Shown piece by piece: positions 8,101 through 11,100 of a stretch of 14,635 bases of DNA (the first letter of the stretch is position 1; every line of letters begins with the position of its first letter). This DNA comes from a virus (lineage: Duplodnaviria > Heunggongvirae > Uroviricota > Caudoviricetes), in the IMG/VR virus record IMGVR_UViG_2875718163_000003, one strand, 5' to 3'. The position numbers are program-made.

Positions 8101-11100
8101 CAATTGCGCTTCCGCGTATGCTTCTTCCTGCCAGCACTTTGTTACCAGTTTACCAATGACGTCCGCATACCCCTTATACCACTGATAATCGGTCAGGTCT
8201 GGTACCAGCTTCTGGACATGACGTCGTGCCAGCGTGGTCGGTAAACGACTAAACCGGTTTCCATTACAACGCCCACAAATCTTATATACCGGTACGCCAT
8301 GAAACCGGGTTCTTTTTTCATCCAGAACAATCCCTTTACCCTTACACCCTCTGCACGCTGTGCTGGCTTCGCCCTTACCATGGCAATGCTGACATAGTTC
8401 CTTCACCCATTCTTCCTTGATTACAGATTCCCCGCGTCTGTAGTGTTTCACCACTTCGCGCAATACATTATAAAATCCCGTACCTGAACAATGCTCACAG
8501 CGAGCCTTACTTGCCGCAGACCTGGAGTAATCAGCAAAGGCAAAACTCACGAGGTAAGGAATAATCTGTAACCGGATTTCTTCACTCAATTTGTTCAATG
8601 TCGGGTTATCCAGTGCCATCGCGTAATTTAGCAGGCCTTCAATCGCAAACTGAGGGTCCTGAACACCAACTTTTGCCAGAAATAAGGCCAACCCAAGTGG
8701 TGCTTTCGACTGCACCATCCCCTGCGCTGCCATTACATCCGTAATTGTTAAACAACCGGTGCCTGTCGCTGGAGCGTCATCGCTCAATTTTGGAGATTTT
8801 GGGGAGTAATATTTTGGTAAGGCTTCAAGGTTCATGCTCGTTCTCCACTTACGCCAGTACGCCAATTGCCAGCGCGCGATCGATAAAACGAAATATCAGC
8901 TCCAGTTGGGAGCCATACTTATCTTCAAATGCCACTGTATCCGTATGCAGCTCGTTGTGATGCTTTCTGCACAAAGGCAACACAAAGAGATCATGTGCTT
9001 TTGTTCCCATTCCGCCCTGCCCGTGACCAATCAGATGATGCGGATCGTCGGCTGGCATACCGCAGCAAGCACACGGCTGTGTCTTAACCCAACGTGTGTA
9101 TTTCTCCTTAACCCAGCGGCGACGTTTAGGCAGCTTCATGAAAGATTCCGGAGACTCTGGATCAACGGTGATGCTTACCACCGTCTTTTCCTGTGGTGAT
9201 TTTTGTTGCTGGTGGGCGTAAGGCAACGGTGCAAGATTTTTTGTGCGTTGTTTCAATATGCTGGTGGCGGTCTGCTCTCCCGGTACGATGTCGCTTTCGC
9301 GGTACACCGAGCAGATTTTTTCCGCTGGTAATCCCAGCGAACGACGCGATACAGCCTCAGGTAGTGCATCCACCACCTGATTGCAGACCGCCCACCAGGA
9401 TAATTCAGCCAAAGATAATTCCCGCTCCTGCGTACCGCTTATTGCGTGACGGATGACGTCAATCACCCATGCTGTCAGATTTTGTTGAGCAAGCAGCTCC
9501 AGTGATTCCGATGTCTGGTCACGCAGTTGGTTGTCGCAGTGCCAGCACAACACCATTGCGCCGGTACCATAACGGTGAATGACTGTTTCAGTGTGATGGT
9601 AATCGCCATTAGGCCACTGGCAGGATGTAACATGACGTAATAGCCAGTCGGACAATGCGCCAACGCCGCCAGCAGCACGAATCACCCGTTCGTTACTAAA
9701 AAACGGCAGCAATGTTTTGTCTTCCGCCAGCGGCTGGCGAACGGCAGGAACGACTCCGGATGGCAGATTACGCATGCTTTTTGGTTCCGGTTCCACCAGC
9801 ACTCGAGGATTATGAAATATCTGTATGGATTCACGGCCCGGCTTAAGGACCACCAGCCCAAGCTCAGGCACCAGAACAGGTCTAAGTAATACCCGCACGT
9901 TACCTCCAGATCCGTTGCTGGAAAGTGCGGGACGCACGTGGTGGGCGTTCGGAATAAGGCAGCCTGACAGAGATTATCCAGTGCCGATAGTCGAGACTGA
10001 GAGCTTTCTTAACCTCGAACCCGCGCCTGCGGTAAGAATGAATCAGCCATTCGGCCTGTTCTGCAGTGCATGGAGGGTGCTGGAACCATTCAGACTTGAA
10101 TGCGTGAGAATACCGCCCGTGCGTGCAGGCAAGAACGGGCGAATTATCAGAATTGTAATATTTTGCGTTGCGTGCCATCGGTTTTCTCCGGTGGCACGGT
10201 GTTACTCAGCGGGAGTTCAGCCCCGCGCAAGATTGTAGATGAGTTTATTCTCCTGAAAAAGCAGAAAAGCCAGCTTTTATTCCGATCTCTTTCAATGCCT
10301 GTAATGAAGTGACAAACTCACCTTCGCGCAAGATAAATCCGTCCGTGACCCGAGCATCCACAAAATTAATTAACGCAGCCCCATTCTTTCGCAAACACAT
10401 AATGCGGTAATGACTAACAAGATTTCCATTTTCAACGCACACAGCATAGAGGCCATCTTCACAAAAAATTTTACGCAGTTCTTCGATGTTCATCATCAGA
10501 ATCCTTCCGGATAATTAGCTCTCCCCTTTAAGGGACCATCCCTCTTATCCCTGCGCGCTACTTAAGTATTTTTGATTCTATTCCGGCACCGTCCAGAACT
10601 TCAAACGCGTTGAAAATAAAAACAAAAACCCGCCGAAGCGGGTTAAGTGCGGGTGCGTTGAGGATGCCTGCCACATCAGAGGTGGCGAGGGATTTCTCCC
10701 CCGCCGGGTCTCTTACTCCTCAGGTTCGTAAGCTGTGAAGACAGCGACCTCCGTCTGGCCGGTTCGGATTCGTACCTCGCAGAGGTCTTTCCTCGTTACC
10801 AGTGCCGTCACTATGACGGTTAAACAGATGACGATCAGGGCGATTAACATCGCCTTTTGCTGCTTCATAGCCTGCTTCTCCTGTCAACGCAAAGCAGAAG
10901 TGTCACCTTCGGTGCGAAACAGAGATGTCATGCTTTGGTTCAGAGAATGCGTTTGACCGCCTCGCTATATACTTCCGAGCGTTCTCTTTTCCCAACAGAA
11001 ATCACGAAAACGACAACTTTCTCGTCTATAACCTGGTATACAAGGCGATAGCCTGAAGACCGGAGCTTAATCTTGTAACAATCAGGCATACCACGGAGCT

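What the first reader, a model, noticed from the sequence alone, without database searches (positions are those of the whole stretch)
8849..10178. HNH-like Cys/His motif at the C-terminus of ydfU, with a tightly coupled unrecognised 92-aa ORF upstream
The ydfU C-terminus (CACCG...DPHHLIGHGQGG...CRKHHNELH) looks like an HNH nuclease/zinc-finger core. The upstream ORF has a strong SD, and its stop is 1 nt from the ydfU GTG start. The pair sits in the nin-like region upstream of Q. I do not recognise the 92-aa protein and could not name it from memory.
Basis: partly seen in the sequence, partly recalled or inferred. Interest (0 to 1): 0.5.

Follow-up and report, generated by a model that had tools for sequence, protein, structure and literature searches.

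The report
Known phage nuclease plus overlooked small gene
In the defective Qin prophage of E. coli K-12, the C-terminus of YdfU is an already published HNH-type nuclease domain, and the 92-codon reading frame just upstream is a real, conserved phage gene of unknown function that the reference MG1655 annotation omits.

Summary
The window is E. coli K-12 Qin prophage. ydfU (8849-9898, minus strand, GTG start) is DUF968 (Pfam E 1e-76). Its Cys/His C-terminus aligns with the YbcO His-Me (HNH) finger. Jablonska et al. 2017 already place YdfU by name in His-Me finger group 7, so this part is known.

The 92-aa ORF (9900-10178, minus strand) has a GGAG ribosome-binding site 7 nt before its ATG. It ends TGG-AGG-TAA-C-GTG, so its last two codons form the GGAGG ribosome-binding site for ydfU. 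It is a real gene:
- dN/dS is 0.10-0.20 over residues 27-92.
- It belongs to a small family of about 66 aa (phrog_1212), with no Pfam family and no solved relative.
- The model gives a confident beta-alpha-beta-beta core and a basic tail.
- PGAP calls it hypothetical protein WP_012304870.1. NC_000913.3 leaves it unannotated.

Across 191 loci (18 clusters at 70% identity), the gene directly downstream is a nuclease in 12 clusters: NinG, YdfU, RusA, YbcO or RNase_T. However, small-protein similarity does not follow nuclease type. YdfU homologues also occur without the small gene, and no fusions exist. I read it as a nin-region gene that sits just upstream of the junction-nuclease position, not as a dedicated YdfU partner. 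Interest is low to moderate.

The parts
9900..10178 (-). 92-aa ORF (PGAP: hypothetical protein WP_012304870.1; unannotated in NC_000913.3, where it corresponds to 1644306-1644584). Residues 1-26 are a poorly conserved, disordered extension specific to Escherichia. Residues 27-92 are the conserved phrog_1212 core.
   Evidence: ORF list. Single in-frame start. phrog_1212 E 1.7e-35 over residues 27-92. PGAP annotation. Absent from the MG1655 record. dN/dS 0.10-0.20 for the core and 0.55-0.67 for the N-terminal extension. AlphaFold2 block-mean pLDDT about 94-96 over residues 31-70, with strands at 28-33, 56-60 and 67-75, a helix at 39-52, and residues 1-23 below 50.
10186..10189 (-). Shine-Dalgarno GGAG for the 92-aa ORF, 7 nt before its ATG (10176-10178).
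   Evidence: Read from the sequence.
9903..9907 (-). GGAGG formed by the last two sense codons (TGG AGG) of the 92-aa ORF. It serves as the Shine-Dalgarno for the ydfU GTG 4 nt downstream. The stop TAA is at 9900-9902.
   Evidence: The same TGG-AGG or TGG-GGG, stop, 1-2 nt, ATG/GTG arrangement is seen upstream of NinG, YbcO, RusA and YdfU genes in other phages; the RNase_T-type locus has TGG-AGA.
8849..9898 (-). ydfU, 349 aa, GTG start. A nin-region protein with a C-terminal His-Me (HNH) finger.
   Evidence: Pfam DUF968 E 1.4e-76 over residues 160-346. phrog_96 'HNH endonuclease' E 3e-171. Annotated as ydfU in RefSeq. The GTG one nucleotide after the upstream stop is conserved in all E. coli alleles examined. 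The older 362-aa start at 9937 is open in only 3 loci.
8909..9091 (-). His-Me finger core of YdfU (about residues 270-330): C276-x2-C279, PH286-H287, GH292G, GTKAHD303, PLC310-x2-H313-H314-N315-x2-H318.
   Evidence: Alignment of six homologues at 28-73% identity leaves C276, H287, H292, D303, P308 and L309 invariant. hhalign against YbcO gives E 3e-4 over residues 275-329. Published classification with YbcO, PDB 3g27.
9521..9622 (-). Second conserved Cys/His motif in the YdfU N-terminal domain (residues 93-126): C93-Q94 ... H102 ... L117-C118-W119-H-C121-D122-N123 ... R126. Possibly a zinc site.
   Evidence: C93, Q94, L117, C118, W119, D122, N123 and R126 are invariant. Positions 102 and 121 are H and C in the enterobacterial lambdoid proteins but C and H in P1 PdcB and Vibrio phage Her. 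Not covered by the DUF968 profile.
8083..8835 (-). ydfT, the Q-like antiterminator immediately downstream. It defines the position as the distal end of a nin-like region.
   Evidence: Pfam Antiterm E 4e-54. Annotation.
10245..10496 (-). rem, the upstream neighbour in Qin. It is not a conserved neighbour of the module elsewhere.
   Evidence: Upstream neighbours fall into 19 clusters across loci.

Best explanation
The locus is an ordinary, translationally coupled two-gene stretch at the distal end of a lambdoid nin region.

YdfU is a two-domain phage protein. Its C-terminus is a zinc-stabilised His-Me (HNH-type, YbcO-like) finger. His287 is the likely general base, and His314, Asn315 and His318 on the following helix are the likely metal-binding side. 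From its fold family and its position beside RusA and Q, and in the place where other phages carry NinG/Rap, I infer a DNA endonuclease acting on recombination or replication intermediates. The fold assignment is shown here. The activity and the substrate are inferred.

The 92-aa ORF encodes a real small basic protein (pI 10.2). It has a disordered 26-residue N-terminal extension found only in Escherichia, a beta-alpha-beta-beta core, and a strongly conserved basic tail (PRPSRTFQQRIWR). It belongs to a sparse enterobacterial phage family of about 66 aa (phrog_1212).

Its 3' end carries the ribosome-binding site for whichever gene follows. That gene is usually a nuclease of one of five different families. 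I take the small gene to be a conserved occupant of the position just upstream of the junction-nuclease gene, with the module joint at its stop codon. It most likely acts in the same DNA-transaction pathway, for example by binding DNA or a host factor, independently of which nuclease is present. I do not take it to be a specific YdfU subunit, inhibitor or immunity protein.
For: Identity and fold of YdfU.

The ORF is coding and conserved.

Structure and charge of the small protein.

Coupling.

Context:
- In 177 loci the directly downstream gene is NinG in 85, RusA in 58, YdfU in 17, RNase_T in 9, YbcO in 2 and something else in 6.
- Collapsed to 18 clusters at 70% identity (191 loci), 12 are directly followed by a nuclease and 3 more have NinG, RusA or YbcO within 2-4 genes (independent contexts).
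- Upstream neighbours are far more variable, falling into 19 clusters.

Independence from nuclease type:
- Small proteins paired with different nuclease families are as similar to each other (45-48%) as those paired with the same family.
- YdfU homologues occur without the small gene.
- No fusions exist.
Against: No biochemical or expression data were available. Qin is defective, and transcription of this stretch in K-12 was not tested.

Direct adjacency to nucleases in 12 of 18 clusters is stronger than I would expect for a random nin gene. This leaves room for a real functional link that my reading plays down.

The loci come from a few seed sequences, so they are not phylogenetically independent.

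In P1 PdcB and Vibrio phage Her some zinc or metal ligands of the His-Me finger are replaced, so activity cannot be assumed across the family.
Confidence: 0.7

Rival explanations
1. The small protein is a general accessory factor for phage junction-processing nucleases. It would bind branched DNA, or a host protein at stalled forks or junctions, and recruit or license whichever resolvase-type nuclease is made right after it from the coupled reading frame.
For: It lies directly 5' of a nuclease gene in 12 of 18 non-redundant clusters, and within 2-4 genes of one in 3 more, across unrelated nuclease folds. The coupling junction is conserved, with the ribosome-binding site inside its last codons. 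The protein is basic and its tail is under strong purifying selection. Its upstream neighbours are often recombination mediators: DUF1367, NinB-like or RdgC-like.
Against: Order within nin regions is conserved anyway, so adjacency is weak evidence. In several lineages other small genes, Dam or dGTP-diphosphohydrolase-type genes intervene, or no nuclease is nearby. There is no co-variation with nuclease type. YdfU, NinG and RusA are widespread without it; for example, 186 phage records carry YdfU homologues against 57 with the small protein.
Confidence: 0.2
2. The pair is a toxin/antidote-like or nuclease/inhibitor module. The small protein would hold the YdfU nuclease in check until needed.
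For: Tight coupling with the small gene first. One phage record labels the ORF 'toxin to Rem'. Toxin-antitoxin cassettes sit just upstream in several contexts.
Against: YdfU homologues at 26-58% identity lack the small gene. P1 PdcA, at the equivalent position, is not homologous. The small protein is equally often paired with RusA or NinG, which are not toxic partners. There are no PADLOC hits. The 'toxin to Rem' label is an unsupported automatic annotation.
Confidence: 0.05
3. The 92-aa ORF is not translated in Qin. The conserved DNA would instead serve as a leader or ribosome-binding region for ydfU.
For: NC_000913.3 does not annotate it. The N-terminal 26 codons are weakly constrained (dN/dS 0.55-0.67). 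Qin is a decayed prophage.
Against: The core dN/dS of 0.10-0.20, and pN far below pS in the last 26 codons, show selection on the protein. Homologues down to about 30% identity keep the same length, core and C-terminus across Enterobacterales. A good ribosome-binding site precedes the only start codon. The reading frame is kept through 3-nt-multiple indels.
Confidence: 0.05

Closest known systems
YbcO / DUF1364 (PF07102; DLP12 prophage; PDB 3g27) and DUF968 (PF06147): His-Me finger group 7 of Jablonska et al. 2017
   Same: The YdfU C-terminus has the same motif order as YbcO: CxxC, a catalytic His after the first strand, G-x-G-T-K-x-x-D-L, then C-x-x-[CH]-H-[DN]-E. hhalign gives E 3e-4. Both lie in the nin region next to RusA and Q.
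   Different: YdfU is 349 aa against about 96 aa for YbcO. It has an extra N-terminal domain of about 160 residues carrying its own conserved Cys/His motif. Neither protein has a demonstrated activity in the sources read.
Lambda NinG/Rap (PF05766) and RusA (PF05866), the phage junction-specific endonucleases
   Same: They occupy the same genomic position just upstream of Q. The same small-protein family precedes them, with the same coupled junction.
   Different: YdfU gives no NinG or RusA profile hit. RusA has an unrelated fold. YdfU often co-occurs with RusA rather than replacing it. Junction specificity of YdfU is untested.
P1 PdcB (pdcA-pdcB downstream of phd-doc)
   Same: PdcB is a full-length YdfU homologue (26% identity over residues 32-348). 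It is preceded by a 66-aa ORF and by a toxin-antitoxin cassette.
   Different: PdcA is not homologous to the 92-aa ORF family (hhalign probability 0.1%). PdcB has substitutions in the C-terminal finger. Its function is listed as unknown (PMC10067587).
Small nin-region proteins NinD, NinE, NinF, NinX (Pfam families)
   Same: They are small, tightly packed, translationally coupled genes of unknown function between the replication genes and Q. In the Pantoea locus L196 a weak NinF-type gene precedes NinG.
   Different: None of the 38 family members hits any Nin Pfam family at E up to 1. NinF and NinX genes coexist with the family in the same loci, so it is a separate family.
phrog_1212 and N15 Orf QD1
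   Same: This is the family itself: E 1.7e-35. The only structural match is N15 Orf QD1.
   Different: The Escherichia form has a 24-26 residue N-terminal extension that the 66-aa profile lacks.

Membership tests
DUF968 (PF06147), His-Me finger clan | Profile match above the curated gathering score | tested here: met
   256.8 bits against a cutoff of 27.8, covering residues 160-346 and the whole profile 1-171.
His-Me / HNH finger | Conserved catalytic His at the end of the first strand, followed by a helix carrying His/Asn metal ligands | tested here: met
   H287 and H292 are invariant in six homologues at 28-73% identity. The segment C310-RK-HHNELH aligns with YbcO C-SA-CHDEID. The beta-beta-alpha geometry itself was not modelled here.
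His-Me / HNH finger | Detectable homology to a member with a solved beta-beta-alpha-metal structure | tested here: inconclusive
   A direct PDB sequence search finds nothing. hhalign against a YbcO homologue gives E 3e-4 but only 40% probability. HNHc_6 scores 26.3 bits against a cutoff of 26.6. The published clustering with 3g27 supports the link.
His-Me / HNH finger | Metal-dependent nuclease activity | not testable with these tools
   No assay was possible, and none was found in the papers read.
Lambda Orf/NinB-like domain fused to HNH (as proposed for Gram-positive DUF968 proteins, PMC4118853) | N-terminal similarity to Orf/NinB | tested here: not met
   hhalign of the YdfU alignment against four NinB-type proteins gives probability 0.2%. 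There is no NinB Pfam hit.
phrog_1212 (92-aa ORF) | Profile match over the full profile | tested here: met
   E 1.7e-35, with residues 27-92 matching profile positions 1-66 of 66.
Known nin small-protein families (NinD/E/F/X/H) or any Pfam family (92-aa ORF) | Profile match | tested here: not met
   The window protein hits no family at E up to 1. The 38 family members give only scattered chance hits. No NCBIfam hit and no PADLOC hit.
Dedicated two-gene nuclease/partner (toxin-antitoxin-like or immunity) module | Obligate co-occurrence of the two families, and co-variation or fusion | tested here: not met
   YdfU occurs without the small gene. The small gene occurs with four other nuclease families or with none. 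There is no co-variation and there are no fusions.

The most novel reading that the evidence does not exclude
The phrog_1212 family, including the unannotated K-12 gene, is a so far unrecognised general cofactor of phage junction-resolving nucleases. It would be made from the same coupled message. It would bind branched DNA, or a host fork or junction protein, through its basic Trp-containing tail, and deliver or license NinG, RusA, YbcO or YdfU regardless of their fold.
Probability: 0.15. Interest if true: 0.6.

Novelty: already known. Interest (0 to 1): 0.25.

Why it matters
The practical value is modest.
- The reference MG1655 record (NC_000913.3) lacks a protein-coding gene at 1644306-1644584, between ydfU and rem. 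That gene is under clear purifying selection, and PGAP annotates it in other K-12 genomes. The reference could be corrected.
- YdfU can be treated as a YbcO-like His-Me nuclease candidate with an extra conserved N-terminal Cys/His domain.
- The small-protein family is a cheap experimental target. It sits just 5' of four or five different nuclease families in temperate enterobacterial phages, and its last codons supply their ribosome-binding site.

If the small protein turned out to act with these nucleases, it would add a missing component to the poorly understood nin-region recombination functions. If not, it remains a clear example of a module joint placed exactly at a stop codon.

Tried and rejected
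- **Fusion of the two proteins elsewhere.** Among the 75 family representatives, the long ones are a fusion with a replication-protein-O-like N-terminus (P0186), an apparent read-through into the next gene, probably by frameshift (P0153), and a spurious repeat protein (P0175). Rejected.
- **P1 PdcA as a distant homologue of the small protein.** It has the same length of 66 aa and the same position before a YdfU homologue. hhalign probability is 0.1%. Rejected.
- **Orf/NinB-like domain in YdfU.** Rejected.
- **Profile against PDB sequences and Pfam.** Nothing found.
- **PADLOC defence models.** Nothing found.
- **Rfam on the whole window.** Only the two cspA thermoregulators elsewhere, and nothing in the target region.
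- **The search for related loci with family alignments.** Failed for lack of a conserved 7-10 column stretch. Seed P0141 found no loci.
- **Promoter and terminator scans.** Counts were not above those of the shuffled controls.
- **Literature.** Nothing on WP_012304870, and no functional work on ydfU or pdcB.
- **The 362-aa YdfU start (GTG at 9937), which overlaps the small ORF.** It is not conserved outside the Qin-like allele. The overlapped codons are under selection in the small ORF's frame. Rejected in favour of the 349-aa start.
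Full report
**What the window is.** The window is 100% identical to E. coli K-12 strains over its whole length and lies in the cryptic Qin prophage. On the minus strand the order is relB, relE, hokD, rem (10245-10496), the 92-aa ORF (9900-10178), ydfU (8849-9898) and the Q-like antiterminator ydfT (8083-8835).

**Check of the observation.**
- ydfU starts with GTG at 9896-9898 and encodes 349 aa. Its C-terminus reads QPCACCGMPADDPHHLIGHGQGGMGTKAHDLFVLPLCRKHHNELH.
- The 92-aa ORF has a single in-frame start codon, an ATG preceded by GGAG with a 7-nt spacer.
- The ORF ends TGG AGG TAA, then one C, then the ydfU GTG.
- The last two sense codons therefore spell GGAGG, the ribosome-binding site for ydfU.

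**YdfU.**
- Pfam gives DUF968 at E 1.4e-76 over residues 160-346. It also gives sub-threshold hits to HNHc_6 (26.3 bits against a cutoff of 26.6) and to RecA_dep_nuc.
- PHROGs gives phrog_96, named 'HNH endonuclease', over the full length.
- I aligned six homologues at 28-73% identity: Qin, an O157-type prophage, phage cdtI, Klebsiella phage 1 LV-2017, P1 PdcB and Vibrio phage Her. C276, H287, H292, D303, P308 and L309 remain invariant in the C-terminal finger.
- hhalign places residues 275-329 on residues 18-73 of a YbcO homologue at E 3e-4. The motifs correspond: PHH to AH, GMGTKAHDL to GTGIKPPDL, and CRKHHNELH to CSACHDEID.
- A direct sequence search of the PDB finds nothing.
- None of this is new. 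Jablonska et al. 2017 (PMC5714182) put DUF968 and DUF1364 together as His-Me finger group 7, name YdfU (NP_416078) and YbcO (PDB 3g27), note RusA and Q as neighbours, and propose a recombination role.
- Curtis et al. 2014 (PMC4118853) described the zinc-finger HNH motif of DUF968 in Gram-positive phage proteins fused to an Orf-like domain. I tested for such an Orf/NinB-like domain in YdfU and found none.
- The N-terminal 160 residues are a separate conserved domain (phrog_11007). It carries its own invariant motif, C93-Q94 ... L117-C118-W119-x-x-D122-N123 ... R126.

**The 92-aa ORF is a real gene.**
- Against four diverged E. coli phage alleles, residues 27-92 have dN/dS of 0.10-0.20. The N-terminal 26 codons have 0.55-0.67, and their indels keep the reading frame.
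- In the last 26 codons pN is 0.03-0.05 against pS 0.26-0.31 in the two most diverged alleles. The conservation of the tail is therefore selection on the protein, not only on the ribosome-binding site.
- A profile search of 1.84 billion representative proteins finds only 75 members. Most are 65-69 aa and start where residue 27 of the Qin protein lies.
- The family is phrog_1212, of unknown function. It has no Pfam, NCBIfam, PADLOC or PDB relative.
- With a 38-sequence alignment, AlphaFold2 gives block-mean pLDDT of about 94-96 over residues 31-70. The core has strands at 28-33, 56-60 and 67-75, a helix at 39-52, and a short C-terminal helix. Residues 1-23 are disordered.
- The protein is basic (pI 10.2, tail pI 12, family median 9.7).
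- PGAP annotates the ORF in K-12 derivatives as hypothetical protein WP_012304870.1. The reference record NC_000913.3 shows nothing between ydfU (1643255-1644304) and rem (1644651-1644902). No paper in the library mentions it.

**Is it a partner of YdfU?** Within Escherichia the pair travels together.
- The same one-nucleotide junction and GTG start are seen in alleles at 71-92% identity. These come from inducible phages (mEp460, Tritos, vB_EcoS-689R5) and from O157-type prophages.
- The upstream genes differ (rem, ImmA/IrrE, hok, parDE), and the downstream gene is RusA or Q.

Outside this clade the picture changes.
- I collected loci from annotated phages, IMG/VR and assemblies. In 177 of them I called the gene directly after the family member. 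It is NinG in 85 loci, RusA in 58, YdfU in 17, an RNase_T-type exonuclease in 9, YbcO in 2, Dam in 2 and something else in 4.
- Collapsing 191 loci to 18 clusters at 70% identity, 12 clusters are directly followed by a nuclease: NinG 7, YdfU 2, RusA 1, YbcO 1 and RNase_T 1. Three more have NinG, RusA or YbcO two to four genes on, and three have none within five ORFs.
- The upstream neighbour is much more variable, with 19 clusters that include DUF1367, NinB-like and RdgC-like proteins.
- The junction is similar in all classes: TGG-AGG or TGG-GGG (TGG-AGA in the RNase_T-type locus), a stop, one or two nucleotides, then ATG or GTG.
- Against a specific partnership: small proteins paired with different nuclease families are as similar to each other (45-48%) as those paired with the same family.
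- YdfU homologues in cdtI, Klebsiella phage 1 LV-2017, P1 and Vibrio phage Her have no family member nearby.
- Phage records with YdfU homologues (186) far outnumber those with the small protein (57).
- P1 PdcA is at the equivalent position and is also 66 aa, but it is not homologous.
- There are no true fusions.

**Interpretation.** The best reading is that this is a normal piece of a lambdoid nin region.
- YdfU is a His-Me finger protein, very probably a DNA endonuclease working on recombination or replication intermediates. The fold family is shown. The activity and the substrate are inferred from the family and the position.
- The 92-aa ORF encodes a small basic protein that occupies the position just upstream of the junction-nuclease gene. 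It supplies that gene's ribosome-binding site, and the joint for module exchange lies at its stop codon.
- Its frequent adjacency to nucleases of unrelated folds leaves a minority possibility, which I put at 15-20%, that it is a general accessory factor for these enzymes.
- A dedicated inhibitor or immunity role for YdfU is unlikely, as is a non-coding role for the ORF.

**Novelty and score.**
- The HNH reading of YdfU is published.
- The ORF is already in RefSeq (PGAP) and in PHROGs as a hypothetical protein.
- This analysis adds four things: proof that the ORF is under protein-level selection, its absence from the MG1655 reference record, a confident fold with no informative relatives, and the context statistics.
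- I rate the finding as already known, with low to moderate interest (0.25).

Noticed in passing
window 9900-10178 (minus strand); NC_000913.3 1644306-1644584: The reference MG1655 record has no gene between ydfU and rem. PGAP annotations of K-12 derivatives call this ORF hypothetical protein WP_012304870.1, and the ORF is under purifying selection. This looks like a gap in the reference annotation.
   Followed up: yes
window 9521-9622 (minus strand), YdfU residues 93-126: The YdfU N-terminal domain carries a second conserved Cys/His motif (C93-Q94 ... L117-C118-W119-H-C121-D122-N123 ... R126). Positions 102 and 121 are H and C in the lambdoid proteins but C and H in P1 PdcB and Vibrio phage Her. 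This looks like a ligand swap in a zinc site. The DUF968 profile does not cover the motif.
   Followed up: partly
window 10713-11466 (hokD, relE, relB); L018 1803-2365; L031 316-471; L032 1456-1668; L036 1092-1693: Toxin-antitoxin or killer cassettes of different families sit just upstream of the small-ORF/ydfU-type module in several elements: relBE plus hokD in Qin, parDE in O157-type prophages, hok in Tritos and vB_EcoS-689R5, and phd-doc before pdcA-pdcB in P1. This may be a recurrent insertion spot or may have a functional reason. It was not analysed.
   Followed up: no
L036 1905-2948 (phage P1 pdcB): P1 PdcB, listed as of unknown function, is a full-length YdfU homologue (26% identity over residues 32-348). 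It has substitutions in the C-terminal finger, so it may be inactive or use different ligands.
   Followed up: partly
window 9903-9908 and the equivalent junctions in L002, L003, L005, L006, L007, L118: Across the family the last two codons are Trp-Arg or Trp-Gly (TGG-AGG or TGG-GGG; TGG-AGA in the RNase_T-type locus L007). They double as the Shine-Dalgarno of the next gene, whichever nuclease family that gene encodes. The module joint is therefore at the stop codon.
   Followed up: yes
window 9899-9937 (minus strand): The older 362-aa YdfU model (GTG at 9937) overlaps the 3' end of the small ORF in another frame. That upstream start is open in only 3 of the loci examined, so the 349-aa start is the conserved one.
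   Followed up: yes
window 10627-10644 (minus strand): A strong terminator-like hairpin (AACCCGCTTCGGCGGGTT followed by a T run) lies downstream of hokD and upstream of rem. Weak promoter-like sites lie at 10575-10604 and 10232-10259 on the minus strand. Taken together, these suggest that rem, the 92-aa ORF, ydfU and ydfT may be transcribed separately from relBE-hokD. Site counts are not above those of the shuffled controls.
   Followed up: no
window 4022-4407 and 6917-7309 (minus strand): Two Rfam cspA thermoregulator matches (112.8 and 158.8 bits). These are the leaders of the prophage cold-shock genes (cspB and another csp paralogue).
   Followed up: no
L004 2741-3268 (PY54 ORF48), L187 downstream ORF of about 202 aa, L015 3204-3593: In the N15/PY54-like and some Pantoea/Erwinia-type loci the gene directly after the family member has no Pfam hit. 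These genes could be further, unrecognised nucleases.
   Followed up: no
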